A stretch of 62,575 bases of DNA, filler included, from Stramenopiles sp. TOSAG23-2 (Eukaryota): the NCBI GenBank assembly GCA_900128395.1. It is 9 parts of 9 records of this genome, joined end to end, with 100 filler letters (N's around TTAATTAATTAA, not from the genome) between each part and the next. Parts side by side here need not be neighbours in the genome. Positions count along the whole stretch, not along the records: positions 55,727 to 62,575 come from LT650397.1; 8 more parts are not named here. One strand, 5' to 3'. Shown here piece after piece: positions 5,631-61,638 of this stretch (position 1 is its first letter; each line of letters opens with the position of its first letter). Both the position numbers and the translations under genes were made by a program. A model generated the notes under the pieces. The model saw only the letters and a list, made by a program, of their open reading frames with translations, made no database searches and was not told the DNA's origin.

Positions 5631-6803
5631 ATGTCATTCAATCGAGCAACAGTGAAATGCCCACAACATTTAGATGGATGGGCATCTTCACCATACGTTA
5701 AAAATCAATTACAACAAGTTATCAATGCGTTTCAATTAAGTGAGGCAATATATGTTTCATTACGTAGTAATAATAATAATAGGTCAGAGTTCAAAGGATC
5801 GTTTTTATTTGAAGGTCCATCCGCTGCAAAAATTCGTGGTGCAAAAAATTTTATTTCTATGCATATGGAACAACAAATGGAATTGATGAGGCGTGAACGT
5901 GGTTTAAGAGAAGCACAAGCAGCACGAGATGCAACGTTAAAAGAGATTGAAGATGGTTTACGAGCGGAGTTTCAAGTACCACGAGATATGATTGGTCTAG
6001 TTATTGGTAAAGGTGGTGCAAATGTCAATAGTGTAAAGGAACAAACTGGTGTGGAACGTATTGTTGTAGATCCGGAAGAAGGTGTTGTTCGTGTAGTTGG
6101 CCATGCCAGGGAAGATGTTGAAAGGGCCAGGGAAATGTTGGAATATGCATTGGAAAAATTAACGTTGGAATCAGATGACGTAGGTGCCTTACTTGCACCT
6201 AGTCAAAGTGGACGTAGTGTCGTATTAAATGAAATACGAGACAAAGCAGGTTTAGTACGAGCACAATTGACGGAAGATCGTTCAACATTGGAGTTGATTG
6301 GAACAAGAGTTGCGGTTGAAAGTGCTATGTTGTTAGTAAAAACACGTTTGGAATATCGTAAAAAAATTAATGAAAAGCAAGAAGAAACAGATTCTCTTTA
6401 CAGAGAAGCAGCCGATATTGATTATTCATATGGTTATGAAAGTAATTTTAGGTATGAAGATAATTTTCCAGCAATTGGTGATAACAGCCGACGTAACAAT
6501 CGTGGCGGTGGTAGCCGAGGTGGCCGAGGAGGAGGCCGAGGAGGAGGGGGAGGAGGAAGAGGAAGAGGTGAAAGAGGCAATGATCGTCGTAATAACAACA
6601 ATAACGCTGATCGTCGCAACAACAACAACAATGATCGCCGAGGTGGAAGAGGAGAAAGAGGAGAAAGAAGCAATGATCGTCGTGGAGGTAATAACGATCG
6701 TCGTAATAATAACAACAAGGATCGTCGCAGCAATGGTGCAAGTAGAGGCGGTAGAAGAGAAGGTAATGATCGTCGTAATAATAACAATAACAACGATCGT
6801 CGC

Positions 6804-41695: not shown

Positions 41696-41836
41696 AATAC
41701 GAAGATATAGGAAGAANNNNNNNNNNNNNNNNNNNNNNNNNNNNNNNNNNNNNNNNNNNNTTAATTAATTAANNNNNNNNNNNNNNNNNNNNNNNNNNNN
41801 NNNNNNNNNNNNNNNNTTATTCATAAGAACACATAA

Positions 41837-54716: not shown

Positions 54717-54816
54717 GGTAAGCAATACATGGACTTCCCGTCTGGTCCCCCACGACAGTACTAACCATGCTTGAAGAGACTTAACTTCTCAGTGCGGGAT
54801 GGGATGAGGTGCTTTA
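54717..54816 (-). pseudogene. 5'-truncated 5S rRNA copy (lacks the first ~20 nt)
   Basis: Exact 120-bp tandem duplication: 54697-54816 = 54817-54936. Confidence 0.75.
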
Positions 54817-54836
54817 AAAAGTTGTAGAAGCAAAAA

Positions 54837-54956
54837 GGTAAGCAATACATGGACTTCCCGTCTGGTCCCCCACGACAGTACTAACCATGCTTGAAGAGAC
54901 TTAACTTCTCAGTGCGGGATGGGATGAGGTGCTTTACTCTTAAGATGATCGCTTAC
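54837..54956 (-). rRNA. 5S ribosomal RNA gene
   Basis: GTAAGCGATCATC...GAAGTTAAG...GGTTAGTACTGTCGTGGGGGACCAGACGGGAAGTCC...GCTTACC; 5'/3' ends pair; T5 Pol III terminator follows; TA-rich box about 25-30 nt upstream. Confidence 0.93.
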
Positions 54957-55296: not shown

Positions 55297-55626
55297 ATTA
55301 ATCAGCAAATTTTATTGTAGTTGTTAATTTTCGATTTCTACGTTTACGTGTTCTACCTTTATATAAACGTCGTTCTTTCTTATTTTCTTGTTGTGCTAAT
55401 TTCACACTACTATCATCTTTTTTTTGTGAAAATCTGCCAATGCTTTTCCACCTTCGTCGCCAATGGCATGATTGCTGATATCTAAAGCGGTCAAGCCTTT
55501 ATTGGCATCTATTGCTTTCTTATTTTCTTGTTGTGCTAATTTCACACTACTATCATCTTTTTTTTGTGATCCAAACTTTCTATCATATACACCTTGAATG
55601 CGACGTCTTTCTTTTTTGGTAATTTT
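55297..55626 (-). other. 3' end of a basic-protein gene interrupted by a single LRR-coding insert between 54-bp duplications
   Basis: 55376-55429 = 55516-55569; intervening 55430-55515 encodes AIDANKGLTALDISNHAIGDEGGKALAD. Confidence 0.6.
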
Positions 55627-56753
55627 NNNNNNNNNNNNNNNNNNNNNNNNNNNNNNNNNNNNNNNNNNNNTTAATTAATTAANNNNNNNNNNNNNNNNNN
55701 NNNNNNNNNNNNNNNNNNNNNNNNNNTATACAAACCGTTGTAATTTTATTGAATAGAGACAATATGCTATATTTATGACAATTGTAGATTTTGATGATTG
55801 ACGGCACCACTTACAAAATATTGTTCCTCTGAATCTTTTTTGTGCCAAATCAGCATGGAGCTTCCCTGACATGTATGAATGGAATCCCAATCGGTTAGAA
55901 CACCATATGAAATGTATTCCTTGTCGCTCTGAAAAATATTTACCATTTAATGTTAAAATATCATTTTTCATATGGGTACATTGAATAACCGGATCATGTA
56001 TGTATTATTAGCAGGTGTATAAGCCTATGATACCACTTCACTGCTATACAGTGTTAATCCAGTAAAAATAATTCCACTTCGATAAGGGGGAAAATCAATG
56101 AAAAATTAAGTACGATTTTAGAATAACAAAAAAAAGTGCATTTTTGTGCACAAAAAAGTAATTTTTAAATATGATTAATATACTAAGAGTACAAATTTTA
56201 TCCTATGTGTAAAATCGGCACCTTTGATCTTTTCGGCTGTCATACATATTCCATTTGCATTACCAAGCGACTAGCCAAAAACAGCTACGTTTCTGATAAC
56301 CTTTGTCAACATTTTAGAGTCAAACAATACACAGTCAGAGAGATATTTTGCTGTATTGTCGCAAGGAAAAACAACTAATAATAATGATAATAATAATAAT
56401 ATAATAATATAATAATAATAAATAAACAACACACAATAACCTGAACCAGCAGCATTAATAGCAATAAATACTCTACTACTAATAAATAATACCAACCTGG
56501 CCAACAACACTTTTTATTTTTATTATCTGGTGCTGTACCACGTAGAGGTGTAACATCAATAAACAATATGAAGGAGTTTGTTATGCCTTTTACAGATAGA
56601 TACTTTTACCGACGTAAATCAACTTGCACGGTTCCCTGTTAAGCATTGAAATTGGACCAGAGCTTGCCCAGCTTGCTGGCGGGCTGGCCCAGCTGGCTTG
56701 GTCAGTCTGCTTGGTGCGTAAGACAAAAAACTACTACCTCTTGTTGGTCATTA

Positions 56754-56974
56754 ACAGGGGGTATTATTTTCAATTTGGCATTTGGATTTGGAACAAACTC
56801 ACTGAGGATGAAAATAGTACAACCAAAATTGGATCGTAGGCAATGCTGTGTCCATGGTAAATATATCCTAGCATGGTACTACGCCTGAAATCAATAGCAT
56901 GGACACAGGGGGTATTATTTTCAATTTGGCATTTGGAATTGGAACAAACTCACTGAGGATGAAAATAGTACAAC
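56754..56974 (+). repeat. 70-bp direct repeat (56754-56823, 56905-56974) with an internal 11-bp inverted repeat CTGTGTCCATG/CATGGACACAG
   Basis: Direct sequence comparison. Confidence 0.85.
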
Positions 56975-57318
56975 AATTATTAGTGTAAATACAACTTTTA
57001 TTACTATCAAACTGAGACAGCAGTGTTTTTGGAAAACACTGCTGTCGTCATATATGGTGGTAGTCTTATTATTATTCGAATATAATGAATAATGATTATT
57101 AAAGCCCGTGGGATTCCATAATGTACCGACCGTTTTTTTGTGCACGTGAACACACTTTTTAAAATAGGTCGGTTAACTCAATAATAAAAAAATAATAATG
57201 TAATAAGAAAGAAATAAAAACAAATTTCATTCTTCAAAATTAATTGTTTTCATCTCCCCTCTCAGACATTTGGATTTTTATTATTACATTTTTGGTGTCA
57301 AAGAGATATTAATAACAT

Positions 57319-60300
57319 ATGACGTTATTAATTAAATATTTAATAATAATAACTTCAACTGTAATAGTATGCAACGCTTTTGGATTGAAAGAAGAAATAT
57401 GTGCGGGGCAGAAAGATTTGATGCGTAAATTAAACCGTGATGGAAAGCTATGTAATGGTGTGGAGAATTGGAAAACATGGTTTCATTTGAATTACCCTGG
57501 TTGTGGAAAAGACATTACGTGGGCAGAAAATCATTTCAAAAATGACGGTGTGAAAATGGCAGGAAAAACCCCTTTAGTAGAAAAGGGAAACCATTTACAA
57601 TTGATGCAGAAACGCCTACTCGATGATAGCTCACGTGGAAGGGAGTTATTAAGCGAATGGAATGGAACGGCAACAACTGGATCATTTAATCTTGTTAGGA
57701 ATATGACGAAGACAAGTAGTACAATTAATGTGGATGGTAAATTAGAAATTATTGGAATTGTTGGGGATGATGGGGTTAAGCCAGCAATTGATGGTGGGAA
57801 TACGCCGGGGTGTACGGACAATTGTCCTGGGCATATGGTGTTTAAATTAACTCACCGGAATCATGAATTACGATTAACAAACATAGCAATTCAGAATGGA
57901 TATTCGGTACGTTTTCTAATTTTGTTTTCTGATTTCTGATAATATTGTATTGGATGATTATTGTCTATCTTTTTTTCTTTCTTTTTCTATAAATCAAATG
58001 CAACGGACTAACATTTAGTTTTATTATTATATATGATATTTAATATATTGTATTTCGAATATGATGGTATAGGCTGTAAGTAAACGTTAAATGATTGATG
58101 TCTTTGTCTTTCTTTTTTATCAAATGGAATGGACTAACATTTAGTTTTATTATTATATATGATAATATATTGTATTTCGAATATGATGGTATAGTATGTA
58201 AGTAAACGTTAAATGATTTGATGTCTTTGTCTTTCTGTTTTATCAAATGCAATGGACTAACATTTATTTTTATTATTGTATCAAGGGTGGCGGATTATAT
58301 ATATATAGAGGATCTGCCATATTGACAAGCTGTACCGTATCAAGTAACACAGCTGTAAGTAGATTCAAACATATCTTTCTATTATCAATCGCAAAGGACT
58401 GACATTCATTTTTATTATTATATATGATATTTTTAATATTGAATCTTGGATATGCATAGAATGTAAGTAAACATTGAATGATAATTATCTTTGTCTTTTT
58501 TTTTATCAAATGCAATGGACTAACATTTAGTTTTATTATTATATATGATATTTAATATATTGTATTTCGAATATGATGGTATAGGCTGTAAGTAAACGTT
58601 AAATGATTGATGTCTTTGTCTTTCTTTTTTATCAAATGGAATGGACTAACATTTAGTTTTATTATTATATCAAGGGTGGCGGATTTTGTATACTTGGTGG
58701 ATCTGTCATATTGACAAGCTGTACCATATCAAGTAACGTAGCTGCAGTAAGTCCCGTCACAAATGGTGGAGGAATATACGTTATTATAGATTTTACAAAA
58801 TTGTTCTTAAATAATTGCATCTTTGAAGGTAATACTGCCTTGAATGACATAGGGGGTGCCCTTTATATTGACGAGTACGGGTCTGCACAACGGGGAGAAT
58901 TGTCTATAATCAATACATCATTTTTTCACGCTTCTGATACTATCTATTTTAAAACAGTATCATCTTCATCATGTATATCTCCCTCGAGTTGTATATCAGG
59001 AGGAGGTGGAACTGTATCGAATTACAACTCCTCTGAATGTAGTCACGTTTTTGTGTGTGGAAGATGTCCAAAAGGACGGTATCACACCGAAAGCGAATGT
59101 TTGCAATGCTTTGTTGGGAGATATACTGATCAACTTGGAGAATCGTCATGTAAACAATGCAAAGTTGGTCTGTACAATTCAGAAAATGGGATGGCAAGTT
59201 GTAAGCCATGTGAAATAGGAAATTATTGCCTTGGTGGCATGAATCAAACAAAATGCCCTCGTGGTTCGTACCAAGATAAAGTGGGCAAATCAAACTGCAC
59301 AGTGTGCCCGGGTGGAAAATACCAAGAAAAAACAGGGCAACCCGATGTTTCTTCTTGCAAAGCTTGTGGTACAGGAAAGTATTTGCCGCCTATTACCAAC
59401 TTTGATCATCACAAAAGCATCAAAAATTGCATTGAATGCGCAAAGGGGCAATATGAATCTTCAGGCGGAGCATCAGAATGCGATAAATGTAGCATCGGAA
59501 AATATTTCTACCCAAACGTTACAGGGAGAGAACGTGAAACTGAAGCTTGTAAACGGTGTGCAAAAAATACTTTTACTTCTTCCCGTGGACTTCTGAGATG
59601 CACAGCATGCGATGTGGGCAAAACGGCAAACGATGCTCATACAAGTTGTGTTACAGATGGAAACAATGATGATACTTCTGCACCAATAATCGATACCGTT
59701 AAATCTGCTAATGAACAACACCGCTCGTTGGATATTACATGGACTGTACCATTAAATACCAACAGCAACACGATAGAAATAGAAAGTATCGTTGTTACAG
59801 CAACAAACGAAGAGACAAATATGGAAGAAATAGAAAAATCTTTTAAACCAGATGCAACAAAAGGGAGGTTAGATGAACTGGCAGTTGAACATCAAATTTA
59901 TAAATTGGATATAAAATTCAAATATAAATCTGGTACTAATAGTAGTAAAAATTCTTGGTCAAAGCTATGGAAAACAACTAACGATTGTAGGGATGACGAA
60001 TTCTATTTAGATGCCACTGGTAACAATATGATGAAATGGAACTGCAAATCTTGTCCAGACGGTGCATCGTGCAAAGGCGCAAAAAGCAAGAACGATCTTT
60101 ACGCCAAATTTGGTTATTGGGGCTACAACAAAACACAATACTACCCTTGCCTTCGTTCACAAGCATGTTTCGGAGGGAAAAATCAAGAATTTAAAGACCG
60201 TTTTAAAGATGCAAATGATGATAAACCAATCGCGTTTTGCGCAGACGGGTATCTTAACGGAAGCCGTTTATGTGCATCGTGTGATCTAAACCATGCTCGT

Positions 60301-61638
60301 GGTTCTAGTTTAGGCGAGTGCAAAGTTTGTCACACAGAAACAGATGTAGTAGGATTTATTGTTGGCGTTTTAGTTGCAACAGGTGGAACTTTCATACTCA
60401 TTAAAATTACAGTATTTAAAGAACGGAAAGTTTATTTTAGTGATGGTGTAAAGAAAATTGCACTTAGTTATTTGCAAACTGTTTTATTGGCACGTAATAT
60501 GAATGTTCCGTGGAATAATACGTTTAGGCAGTTATTCTTTGTGCAGGATGTTGTAGCACATGTGTTGGCAGTAATCTTTTCCTTGGATTGTGTTTTAAGT
60601 ACTGCAACGGCGTGGAGTGTCTTTGTACTTCGATATGTATGTGTACTTATAATGCCTTTTCTTATCGTGCCTTTGACAATATTTTGTATGAAACGTATTG
60701 GTGGCAATAAAGAACAAATCGTTGCTACATTAGTTTTATTATGGTATCTAATGTTTCCAACATTTATACAATCGTTTGCAAAGTTGATAAGTTGCACGGA
60801 AAGTATTGGTACAGAACGGTTACATTATTTAAAACTCGACCCAGAAATAGTTTGTTGGAGAGATACACATTTAATAATGTTTTTTTTTGGTGGTCTTGTT
60901 TCATTAACATATATAATTGGGTTTCCATTAGTTGGATTGTACGTATTGCGTAAAATTGACCGTGACCTACCAGAGAATCGTTTAAAGTATGGGATGTTAT
61001 ACGATGGCTACAACAACCAATATTATTACTGGGAGATAATAATGATATTACGTAAAATTTTAATTGTTGTTATTGGAACATTTGTAGCAGATAGTCAACA
61101 AATACTTTGCGTTTTGTTTGTATTGGCATCATTGATATTTTTGACAGCATACTACCAACCGTTCATGTCAAGCGGCTTGTTGCATTTGGAGCTTGGTTCG
61201 TTATCGTTGGCTTACTTTACATACTCGGTTGGGGGTTTGTTGCAAACAGATCCAACCTGTGCTGATGACAATGGGTTTTGGTGTGAATTTTCTGCATATT
61301 TTGTTACTCTTGTAAATGTTATTGGTATTTTTTACCTTGCATACATATTTGCAACCGCAAAATGGAAAGAAAAGGCAAATTCGGTGATGGCTGTTGTGAG
61401 AAGAAAGCGTTCTTGTTGTTATGCAAAACGCAATGATTTAAATGAGCATCAGGGTAATAGAAATAGTAGAAATACATGGTATGATGATGGTGACGCGGCA
61501 GCGGCAGGTAGAGGTAATGTTGAAGTTGCTATGGTAAAGACATCAAAGGCAAAGAAGGGAGATGGCAATGGCCAGAAAAGAAAAATAGAAACTATTAATC
61601 CATTGATTAATTTATCATCTATCGAGAATAATGGTTGA
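57319..61638 (+). CDS. Multi-exon surface receptor (~1210 aa): signal peptide, beta-helix/PMP-like GGG repeats, Cys-rich GCC2/GCC3-type repeats, FN3-like domain, multi-TM C-terminus. Exons 57319-57906, 58073-58075, 58195-58197, 58286-58354, 58460-58462, 58585-58587, 58675-61638
   Basis: Six GT-AG introns with GACT(A/G)AC branch points, all phase 0, join ORF 57319 to ORF 58711; CPxGxY repeats; YGMLYDGY..YYWE...RK..QPF TM-region motif. Confidence 0.85.
57990..58745 (+). repeat. Tandemly duplicated intron/exon modules
   Basis: TCAAATG(C/G)AATGGACTAACATTTAGTTTTATTATTATAT...GATGGTATAG|NNN|GTAAGTAAACGTTAAATG recurs; 69-nt repeat exon duplicated (58286-58354 vs 58675-58743). Confidence 0.92.

What the first reader, a model, noticed from the sequence alone, without database searches (positions are those of the whole stretch)
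57907..58745. Single-codon (3-nt) phase-0 micro-exon array supplying the loop residues of a beta-helix receptor
Seen: four 3-nt segments sit between a canonical acceptor and a perfect GTAAGT donor: TAG|GCT|GTAAGT (58073-75), TAG|TAT|GTAAGT (58195-97), TAG|AAT|GTAAGT (58460-62), TAG|GCT|GTAAGT (58585-87). They occur in pairs before each 69-nt repeat exon. Spliced, the gene reads ...NGYS|A|Y|GGGLYIYRGSAILTSCTVSSNTA|N|A|GGGFCILGGSVILTSCTISSNVA AVSPVTN GGGIYV... The introns are near-identical copies while the codon differs. Established: GGG(A/L)xI...xxNxA repeats are typical of PMP/pectin-lyase-like beta-helices, with a variable turn between NxA and GGG. Inference: since every junction is phase 0, any micro-exon or repeat exon can be skipped, duplicated or swapped without frameshift, giving codon-level combinatorial diversification of a surface receptor. 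This is analogous to, but finer than, repeat-per-exon shuffling in brown-algal LRR/TPR genes. I know of no description of this design.
Basis: partly seen in the sequence, partly recalled or inferred. Interest (0 to 1): 0.92.

Follow-up and report, generated by a model that had tools for sequence, protein, structure and literature searches.

The report
Single-codon exon arrays in receptor gene
A surface-receptor gene of an AT-rich protist carries runs of exons only three bases long, each flanked by its own short intron. Related genes from other samples keep this layout while the codon changes, which points to a compact way of varying single loop residues, though no RNA data could be obtained.

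Summary
Four YAG|NNT|GTAAGT sites lie at the stated coordinates, in pairs before each 69-nt coil exon, and every junction is phase 0.

This is not peculiar to one assembly. Of 7 related metagenome loci, 6 reach past the first intron, and 5 of those 6 carry the same architecture. That adds 10 single-codon segments, 14 in all, with 9 different codons.

- **Spacing and flanks:** the spacing is exactly 3 nt in 14 of 14. The third base is T in 14 of 14, and YAG and GTAAGTA never vary.
- **The two free bases:** they are the most variable positions in a +/-25-nt context, are 57% G+C inside 16-32% G+C introns, and avoid hydrophobic codons.
- **Splice-site features:** each acceptor has a long AG-free zone and a distal branch site at 42-88 nt, against 24-25 nt for introns ending at ordinary exons.
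- **Linker length:** relatives with no intron here encode 2-8 residues at the same turn, never 0 or 1.

Best reading: these are real, translated single-codon exons that supply beta-helix turn residues. Combinatorial alternative splicing is untested, because the RNA-run tool was unreachable in all 17 tries. I rate it a new variant of micro-exon gene architecture.

The parts
57319..57906 (+). Exon 1: ATG, hydrophobic N-terminus (signal-peptide-like, judged by eye), Cys-containing N-domain. Ends at a codon boundary with the residues NGYS.
   Evidence: 23 relatives by phmmer
57907..58072 (+). Intron A, 166 nt: GTACGT donor, GGACTAAC branch motif 61 nt from the 3' end, AG-free tail of 51 nt, TAG acceptor.
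   Evidence: homologous intron in L001-L003
58073..58075 (+). Micro-exon 1, GCT (Ala).
   Evidence: its positional homolog in L002 is CTT
58076..58194 (+). Intron B, 119 nt: GTAAGT, GGACTAAC 57 nt from the 3' end, TAG.
58195..58197 (+). Micro-exon 2, TAT (Tyr).
58198..58285 (+). Intron C, 88 nt: GTAAGT, GGACTAAC only 25 nt from the 3' end, CAAG acceptor. It ends at an ordinary exon.
58286..58354 (+). 69-nt coil exon: 23 residues, starting GGG and ending N-T-A.
58355..58459 (+). Intron D, 105 nt, the most diverged unit: GTAAGT, GGACTGAC 57 nt from the 3' end, TAG. Its tail shares TTGGATATGCA with the L004 units.
58460..58462 (+). Micro-exon 3, AAT (Asn).
58463..58584 (+). Intron E, 122 nt: GTAAGT, GGACTAAC 61 nt from the 3' end, TAG.
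58585..58587 (+). Micro-exon 4, GCT (Ala). A recent duplicate of micro-exon 1 together with its flanks: 186 nt at 96% identity.
58588..58674 (+). Intron F, 87 nt: GTAAGT, GGACTAAC 25 nt from the 3' end, CAAG acceptor. It ends at an ordinary exon.
58675..61638 (+). Last exon: a further coil homologous to the 69-nt exon, more coils with in-exon linkers, ephrin-receptor-like Cys repeats, about 8 hydrophobic segments, and stop TGA at 61636-38.

Best explanation
The four 3-nt segments are genuine single-codon exons of a gene for a large membrane protein. The protein has a signal-peptide-like start, a right-handed beta-helix, ephrin-receptor-like Cys repeats and about 8 membrane-spanning segments.

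Each micro-exon is spliced between two short introns with consensus signals. It adds one residue to the turn that links the N-x-A end of one beta-helix coil to the GGG start of the next. In this gene the micro-exons read A then Y, and N then A.

The arrays grow, shrink and homogenise by unequal crossing-over or gene conversion between the near-identical introns. Selection acts on the first two bases of each codon, and the splice signals, the exact 3-nt length and the third-base T are held constant.

What is shown:
- The anatomy, and its conservation across six contigs.
- Hypervariability and exon-like composition of the two free bases.
- AG-exclusion zones and distal branch sites.
- The linker length in relatives without an intron here.

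What is inferred:
- Inclusion of the micro-exons in mRNA.
- The reason for the distal branch site. My suggestion is that it keeps the branch-site complex of the upstream intron clear of the donor complex that sits 3 nt past the acceptor.
- Selection for residue diversity.

Whether the micro-exons are also alternatively spliced stays open.
For: 1. Conservation. The search for related loci gave 7 loci with 33-61% identity to exon 1. One contig ends inside the first intron. Of the other 6, 5 carry YAG|NNT|GTAAGT directly after the homologous first intron: L002 has 1, L003 has 2, L004 has 3, L005 has 3 and L006 has 1. With the window's 4 this makes 14 sites, all with spacing of exactly 3 nt. The intron sequences have diverged meanwhile (intron A 57-73% against 76-86% for exon 1).

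2. Variability profile over 16 within-locus unit pairs:
- Codon base 1 differs in 0.88 of pairs and base 2 in 0.69.
- Base 3, positions -3 to -1 and positions +1 to +8 differ in 0.00.
- Other flank positions differ in 0.06-0.50.
- In L004 the 25 nt upstream are identical in all three units, yet the codons are CGT, GAT and TAT.

3. The free dinucleotides are 16/28 G+C inside introns of 16-32% G+C (P = 6e-5 to 3e-3). Only 1 of 13 per-locus-unique codons has T at position 2 (P = 0.018).

4. AG dinucleotides number 0-3 per intron against 3.3-8.3 expected. AG-free tails of 47-184 nt reach P <= 0.015 in 9 of 14 introns and 0.08-0.18 in the other 5.

5. The branch A lies 42-88 nt from the acceptor in the 13 of 14 micro-exon introns that have a CTRAY motif. 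It lies 24-25 nt away in 3 of 3 introns that end at ordinary exons.

6. Fifteen in-exon linkers are 2-8 residues long, none 0 or 1: P0042 x3, P0045 x3, P0087 x1, L007 x6 and the window's own x2. Without the micro-exons this gene would have linkers of 1 and 0 residues.

7. The AF2 model of the L007 coils (pLDDT 70.9, pTM 0.77) has three strands per coil and a non-strand loop at the linker. All of the top 50 VIA rows are right-handed beta-helices, and the best is 7akv_G with Z 15.9, rmsd 3.2 over 190 residues.
Against: - No RNA evidence of any kind: the look-up of sequencing runs did not complete (17 tries), so read laying could not be used.
- No transcript-derived protein spanning a junction appeared.
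- The EukProt gene models of this family (P0054, P0082, P0085) read into the first intron and stop, so annotation gives no support.
- A 3-nt internal exon is mechanically demanding.
- Units within a locus are duplicates, so the pair counts and P values are not independent.
- The AG-free tails of the window's own four introns and of the L002 intron are individually not significant (P = 0.08-0.18).
- One micro-exon intron (L005, ending at 1361) has no CTRAY motif.
- The invariant third-base T has no explanation.
- L004 breaks off after its third micro-exon into an unrelated ORF, so that copy may be truncated or chimeric.
Confidence: 0.75

Rival explanations
1. Composite intron. The whole stretches 57907-58285 and 58355-58674 are each removed as one intron. 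The inner donor, branch and acceptor copies are unused tandem duplicates of intron sequence, and the 3-nt segments never reach the mRNA.
For: - The units are tandem duplicates (TRF period 121-126; 96% identity blocks), so inner signals could persist simply because they are young.
- No transcript evidence exists.
- 3-nt exons are hard to splice.
- Skipping keeps the frame.
Against: - Unused signals and an unused 3-nt spacing would not survive in loci whose exon 1 is only 33-61% identical and whose introns have diverged.
- The two free bases would look like intron sequence, yet they are 57% G+C, avoid second-position T and are the most variable positions in their context.
- AG depletion upstream of each inner acceptor would not be maintained.
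- Skipping would give linkers of 1 and 0 residues, seen in 0 of 15 in-exon linkers.
Confidence: 0.12
2. Regulated cassette system. The micro-exons are included or skipped in combinations, so one gene yields many isoforms that differ by single turn residues or whole coils.
For: - All junctions are phase 0, so every combination stays in frame.
- Donors and acceptors are near-identical and so could pair interchangeably.
- Precedent exists in schistosome micro-exon genes (abstract and passages of PMC10526429).
Against: - Nothing here measures isoforms.
- Short introns (87-166 nt) with consensus GTAAGT and ACTAAC signals suggest efficient intron-by-intron removal, which would favour constitutive inclusion. 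This is an inference from general knowledge of intron definition, not from a call.
- The variation that is documented lies between gene copies.
Confidence: 0.25
3. Origin by intron spread rather than by selection. Copies of one intron were inserted, by reverse splicing or an introner-like process, at successive codon boundaries of a pre-existing linker. The codons differ because they were always different, and the introns are alike because they are young copies. The micro-exons are still translated.
For: - Near-identical introns with unrelated codons between them.
- Some relatives encode the linker with no intron at all (P0042, P0087).
Against: - No target-site duplication: the flanking triplets differ.
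- The GGACTAAC module is confined to this gene in the window (5 of 5).
- Introns ending at micro-exons differ systematically from those ending at ordinary exons: an extra tail of about 40 nt, and a branch site at 57-61 nt against 25 nt.
- A 186-nt block holding a micro-exon with both flanks was duplicated as a unit, which is what unequal crossing-over produces.
- The third base is T in 14 of 14, which pre-existing linker codons would not predict. The in-exon linker codons of L007 are not all NNT.
Confidence: 0.2
4. Artefact or decay. The array is a misassembled repeat, or the gene is a pseudogene whose coil exons have decayed to 3-nt stubs.
For: - Tandem repeats are prone to misassembly.
- L004 keeps an 11-nt remnant of a coil-exon 3' end before a GTAAGT, and then breaks off.
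- The window holds N-runs elsewhere.
Against: - Six independent contigs show the same design.
- Exon 1 and the 987-codon last exon are open and conserved (E = 2e-114 to P0045, 6e-65 to L007).
- The tail before the micro-exon shows no significant similarity to the coil exon (P = 0.25-0.48).
- The two 69-nt exons differ by 7 non-synonymous and 0 synonymous codon changes, which does not look like decay.
Confidence: 0.03

Closest known systems
Schistosoma mansoni micro-exon genes (MEGs)
   Same: Runs of consecutive symmetric (multiple-of-three) micro-exons in genes for secreted or surface proteins. Variation is created without frameshift (PMC10526429: abstract, passages).
   Different: - MEG exons are given as a minimum of 6 bp and mostly 15 bp in the text (the abstract says 3-81). 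They make up most of the coding sequence and are separated by introns of 0.1-5 kb.
- Here the exons are exactly one codon, and the introns are 87-166 nt and copies of one another.
- The micro-exons supply only the turns of a folded beta-helix whose coils are ordinary exons.
- There is no sequence relationship, and the host is a protist.
Isolated 3-nt micro-exons of animals, plants and a dinoflagellate (Drosophila homothorax, cytohesin-1, MAP4K5; plant micro-exon surveys; Amphidinium carterae)
   Same: A single codon is spliced in as an internal exon. Vertebrate neural micro-exons have an extended branchpoint-to-3'-splice-site distance (abstract of PMC12871342). The same contrast is seen here, 42-88 nt against 24-25 nt.
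   Different: - Those are single exons in long introns, regulated by factors such as SRRM4. They are not tandem arrays with homologous introns or hypervariable codons.
- Seen only as search listings or abstract starts: PMC7392893, PMC6314551, PMC8632122, PMC8831610.
- Seen as passages: PMC12584245.
Recursive splice sites (ratchet points)
   Same: An acceptor followed at once by a strong GTAAGT donor inside what looks like one long intron, removed stepwise.
   Different: A ratchet point has AG directly abutting GT, a zero-length exon (recalled, from no call). Here 3 nt lie between them in 14 of 14 sites. Stepwise removal would therefore leave the codon in the mRNA, and the introns are short.
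Combinatorial mini-exons of troponin T
   Same: Several small in-frame exons in a row that can be combined (PMC2447309, abstract start in the listing).
   Different: Those exons are larger than one codon, their introns are not homologous copies, and they encode a disordered N-terminal region rather than the turns of a solenoid.
Introners / introner-like elements
   Same: Many near-identical introns.
   Different: Introners are dispersed over unrelated genes (recalled). Here the copies are tandem within one gene family, the module is confined to this gene in the window, and there are no target-site duplications. No paper held both 'introner' and a micro-exon term among the listed results.

Membership tests
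Spliceosomal internal micro-exon | Canonical acceptor (YAG) immediately upstream and canonical donor (GT...) immediately downstream | tested here: met
   14 of 14 sites are YAG|NNT|GTAAGTA
Spliceosomal internal micro-exon | Branch-site motif and AG-exclusion zone upstream of the acceptor | tested here: met
   CTRAY is present in 13 of 14 introns, 42-88 nt from the 3' end. AG-free tails are 47-184 nt, with P <= 0.015 in 9 of 14 and 0.08-0.18 in 5 of 14
Spliceosomal internal micro-exon | Length and phase keep the reading frame | tested here: met
   3 nt in 14 of 14; all window junctions are phase 0; an NNT codon cannot be a stop
Spliceosomal internal micro-exon | Presence in mature mRNA | not testable with these tools
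   The look-up of sequencing runs did not complete 17 times, so read laying could not be used. No junction-spanning protein appeared or 70
Spliceosomal internal micro-exon | Conservation of the exon in homologous genes | tested here: met
   5 of 6 informative related loci. L002 CTT aligns with window GCT
Micro-exon gene architecture (schistosome MEG type) | Several consecutive symmetric micro-exons | tested here: met
   2 + 2 in the window; at least 3 in a row in L004 and L005
Micro-exon gene architecture (schistosome MEG type) | Most of the coding sequence built from micro-exons | tested here: not met
   12 nt of about 3.6 kb of coding sequence. Exon 1 is 588 nt and the last exon 2964 nt
Micro-exon gene architecture (schistosome MEG type) | Isoform variation by differential splicing | not testable with these tools
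   No RNA data could be reached
Right-handed parallel beta-helix (pectin-lyase-like / PMP-like) | Three-stranded coils of about 22-27 residues stacked into a solenoid | tested here: met
   AF2 model of the homologous coils of L007: pLDDT 70.9, pTM 0.77, three strands per coil. All top 50 VIA rows are this fold, Z 11.7-15.9. Foldseek gave no row at E <= 0.001. The window's own 116-residue fragment did not fold, pLDDT 29.5
Right-handed parallel beta-helix (pectin-lyase-like / PMP-like) | Match to the Pfam Chlam_PMP or Beta_helix models | tested here: inconclusive
   Neither was listed at E <= 0.01 for the last exon or exon 1. The ESM Atlas neighbours carry Chlam_PMP in 34-43% of members, at scores of 0.79-0.81, which is a lead only
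Recursive splice site (ratchet point) | Acceptor AG directly abutting donor GT (zero-length exon) | tested here: not met
   Spacing is 3 nt in 14 of 14, and there are no spacing-0 sites in the array
Introner / introner-like element | Near-identical intron copies dispersed in unrelated genes, with insertion signatures | tested here: inconclusive
   In the window the module occurs only in this gene (5 of 5 GGACTAAC). The flanking triplets differ, so there is no target-site duplication. No whole genome is held, so dispersal elsewhere could not be checked

The most novel reading that the evidence does not exclude
A protist receptor family uses cassettes of the form 'intron - NNT - intron' as a built-in device for varying its protein one residue at a time.

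- The fixed third-base T guarantees a sense codon, since NNT can never be a stop and reaches 15 amino acids.
- The homogenised introns act as recombination and splice-pairing handles.
- The distal branch site makes a one-codon exon spliceable.

The turn residues of the beta-helix could then be varied in two ways: over generations by unequal crossing-over, and within a cell by combinatorial splicing.
Probability: 0.25. Interest if true: 0.9.

Novelty: new variant of a known kind. Interest (0 to 1): 0.78.

Why it matters
If transcripts confirm inclusion, this would be the densest known use of the smallest possible coding exon. At least 14 single-codon exons lie in six gene copies, each with its own 90-190-nt intron, and they have been conserved while the paralogs diverged to 33% identity in exon 1.

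It would matter in three ways:
- **Splicing mechanism.** It gives a natural system for asking how a spliceosome handles an acceptor and a donor 3 nt apart. The distal branch site parallels what is reported for vertebrate neural micro-exons.
- **Protein evolution.** It shows exon-intron structure tuning the length and identity of single loop residues in a solenoid receptor.
- **Annotation.** Gene finders break on these genes. The three EukProt models of the family all read into the first intron, so the family is currently mis-annotated.

Tried and rejected
- **RNA evidence.** The look-up of sequencing runs (same request, window:57319-61638, kind rna) was unanswered. Read laying was therefore never possible.
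- **Whole genome.** None is held, so no genome-wide census of the motif or of paralogs could be made.
- **Transcript-derived proteins across the junctions.**
  - 29 hits. The only 100% hit is an ORF-style 815-aa fragment.
  - 23 hits.
  - 9 hits.
  - 16 hits.
  - None spans a spliced micro-exon junction.
- **Other collections.** There are no relatives in genome contigs or viral contigs.
- **Is the 40-nt tail before each micro-exon a decayed copy of the 69-nt exon?** Local alignment against shuffles gives P = 0.25-0.48 in all 8 comparisons. The idea is not supported. The 11-nt remnant in L004 keeps a related origin possible.
- **RNA structure across 57890-58300.** MFE is -68.7 kcal/mol against a shuffle mean of -71.1, z = +0.48. 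There is no special fold.
- **Foldseek against the PDB with the L007 model.** No row reached E <= 0.001. The exhaustive VIA search did find the fold.
- **AF2 of the window's own residues 1-116 of the last exon.** pLDDT was 29.5, so the model is unusable.
- **A first pattern for whole introns.** It found nothing because its gap limit of 50 nt was one base too short for these introns.
- **Supplementary files.** None were consulted for any paper.
Full report
**What is in the sequence.** The window is eukaryotic and AT-rich, at 25-41% G+C per 2 kb. It has long, mostly uninterrupted reading frames. One gene starts at ATG 57319 with a hydrophobic, signal-peptide-like N-terminus. Exon 1 runs to 57906, and a GTACGT donor follows.

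The long frame resumes at 58675 and runs to a TGA stop at 61636-38. Between the two lie six intron-like units and a 69-nt exon (58286-58354).

- TAG|GCT|GTAAGT
- TAG|TAT|GTAAGT
- TAG|AAT|GTAAGT
- TAG|GCT|GTAAGT

All junctions are phase 0. The pattern occurs 4 times against 0.41 expected, and 0 of 100 shuffles reached 4.

The copies are tandem duplicates. TRF finds periods of 121-126 nt, and one 186-nt block holding a micro-exon with both flanks is repeated at 96% identity. The excess inside the window is therefore mostly duplication and proves little by itself.

**Anatomy of the units.** Each unit has three parts:
- A head: GTAAGTAAAC... through a GGACTAAC branch motif.
- A T-rich stretch.
- One of two endings.

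The first ending is a tail of about 40 nt that closes with TAG plus three bases. The second is CAAG plus the 69-nt coil exon.

The order is tail, tail, exon, tail, tail, exon. The tail places the branch A 57-61 nt from the acceptor. In the two introns that end at ordinary exons it lies 25 nt away.

From the branch site onward, units B and E differ only by a 4-nt indel and the first two bases of the micro-exon.

**Related sequences.** I searched exon 1 against 1.84 billion representative proteins and got 23 relatives.

Most are ORF calls that stop just after the conserved N-G-Y motif, because they read into a homologous intron. Three EukProt gene models do the same (P0054, P0082, P0085). One of them, P0082, is 97% identical to the window's exon 1.

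A scan of metagenome contigs gave seven loci:
- One ends inside the first intron.
- L007 has one ordinary intron and then the coils.
- The other five all show the micro-exon design straight after the first intron.

The codons in those five are:

| Locus | Micro-exon codons |
|---|---|
| L002 | CTT |
| L003 | GGT, CCT |
| L004 | CGT, GAT, TAT |
| L005 | GCT, AAT, TCT |
| L006 | GAT |

With the window this makes 14 single-codon segments and 9 different codons, always in the form YAG|NNT|GTAAGTA.

These loci are 33-61% identical to the window in exon 1. Their introns have diverged further than their exons (intron A 57-73% against exon 81-86% and 76%), yet the 3-nt spacing never changes. The tail of window unit D shares an 11-nt word with the L004 units at the same offset. 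A conservative count of 9 nt gives P = 0.0014. The units therefore appear to descend from a common ancestor.

**Signs that the three bases are read.**

*Variability.* Across 16 within-locus unit pairs, the first two codon bases differ in 0.88 and 0.69 of pairs. The third base, the YAG and the first eight intron bases never differ. Other flank positions differ in 0.06-0.50 of pairs.

The pairs are not independent, so I give the Fisher P of that call no weight. The L004 case is clean, though: the three units have identical 25-nt upstream flanks and three different codons.

*Composition.* The free dinucleotides are 57% G+C (16 of 28) inside introns of 16-32% G+C. Only 1 of 13 per-locus-unique codons has T at position 2, which would encode F, L, I or V. 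That fits exposed turn residues.

*Splice-site hallmarks.* AG is depleted in every one of the 14 introns (0-3 observed, 3.3-8.3 expected). The acceptor AG is preceded by 47-184 AG-free bases. This is significant in 9 of 14 introns and not individually significant in the window's four or in L002's one.

*Linker length.* In relatives that encode this part without an intron, the turn between the N-x-A end of a coil and the next GGG is 2-8 residues in 15 of 15 cases (P0042, P0045, P0087, L007 and the window's own later coils). With its micro-exons the window gene has S-A-Y and N-A at these places. Without them it would have one residue and none.

*Fold.* The homologous coil region of L007 models as a three-stranded solenoid, with confidence dips and no strand at each linker. 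An exhaustive structural comparison returns only right-handed parallel beta-helices in the top 50. The best is Z 15.9, rmsd 3.2 over 190 residues, and pectin methylesterases score Z 14.6-15.5. L007 and P0045 are homologs over the whole architecture (E = 6e-65 and 2e-114).

**How it most likely works.** I read the segments as true one-codon exons.

The distal branch site is the feature that sets micro-exon introns apart from their sister introns in the same gene. The same trend is reported for vertebrate neural micro-exons (abstract of PMC12871342). My inference is that it keeps the branch-site complex of the upstream intron about 60 nt away from the donor complex that must sit 3 nt past the acceptor.

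Stepwise removal cannot drop the codon, because no donor is regenerated at the exon-exon joint.

The near-identity of the introns, set against the divergence of what lies between them, also holds for the two 69-nt exons. They differ at 10 of 69 bases, and all 7 changed codons are non-synonymous. Their preceding introns differ at 4 of 87 bases. This fits intron homogenisation by unequal crossing-over or gene conversion, with selection for different residues. It is also what intron spread into a pre-existing linker would give. I consider the spread model less likely for these reasons:
- There are no target-site duplications.
- A micro-exon was duplicated together with both flanks.
- The two intron classes differ systematically.
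- The third base is always T.

**What is not shown.** No transcript was seen. The tool for finding RNA runs was unreachable in all 17 tries.

Inclusion is therefore inferred from sequence constraint alone, and alternative splicing is entirely untested. The invariant T is unexplained. It cannot be a general donor requirement, because exon-1 donors in the family follow G, C or T. One consequence is that an NNT codon can never be a stop.

The organism is not identified. Relatives occur in ENA and JGI metagenome assemblies and in EukProt gene sets.

**Comparison with what is known.**
- Single 3-nt exons are documented in animals, plants and a dinoflagellate (listings; passages of PMC12584245).
- Schistosome micro-exon genes show that runs of symmetric micro-exons can diversify secreted proteins (PMC10526429). 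Their exons are mostly 15 bp, with a minimum of 6 bp in the text. Their introns are up to 5 kb and are not copies of each other, and the micro-exons make up most of the protein.
- Recursive splice sites have no bases between AG and GT (recalled).

Six full-text searches found no description of tandem single-codon exons with homologous introns, or of micro-exons supplying solenoid turns. Those searches cover only the held open-access library, and I read no supplements. I therefore class this as a new variant of a known kind.

**Verdict.** The reading as translated micro-exons that supply beta-helix turn residues is well supported by comparative sequence evidence (confidence 0.75). The combinatorial-splicing idea remains open (about 0.25). 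Interest is 0.78.

Noticed in passing
window 58744-58764: The third coil-to-coil linker is encoded in the exon and contains a perfect GTAAGT (58747-52) read in frame as Val-Ser. At the two earlier junctions the same hexamer is a donor. Either a donor is being read through, or an intron has been lost or exonised.
   Followed up: partly
14 micro-exons: window 58075, 58197, 58462, 58587 and L002-L006: The third base of every single-codon exon is T (14 of 14), while the first two bases are near saturation. Exon-1 donors of the same family follow G, C or T, so this is not a general donor rule. No explanation was found.
   Followed up: partly
window 58286-58354 vs 58675-58743: The two 69-nt coil exons differ at 10 bases. 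All 7 changed codons are non-synonymous and none is synonymous. Their preceding introns differ at only 4 of 87 bases.
   Followed up: yes
L004 6047-6089 and 6345-7436: An 11-nt remnant of a coil-exon 3' end sits 32 nt after a micro-exon donor and before another GTAAGT. After the third micro-exon, the intron homology breaks and an unrelated ORF starts near 6351. This copy is either truncated or a chimeric contig.
   Followed up: partly
proteins P0054, P0082, P0085 (EukProt gene models): All three public gene models of this family read into the first intron and terminate there. The family appears to be systematically mis-annotated.
   Followed up: partly
window 54717-54956 (-): Two adjacent 5S rRNA genes (Rfam 99.6 and 57 bits). 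The second scores much lower and may be degenerate.
   Followed up: no
window 55628-55726: Two N-runs flank the 12-mer TTAATTAATTAA, which looks like an artificial scaffold linker. ORF translations also show runs of X near 41769 and 48924, so there are further gaps.
   Followed up: no
window 55372-55430 vs 55517-55572, and 56757-56830 vs 56909-56975: Two pairs of direct repeats of about 55-70 nt lie in the intergenic region upstream of the gene. I saw them by eye.
   Followed up: no
window 58675-61635 (last exon): The C-terminal half has about 8 hydrophobic segments and a sub-threshold match to the Pfam TRP family (16.4 bits, cut-off 28.5). This region is 36% identical to P0045. The protein may be a channel-like receptor.
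   Followed up: partly
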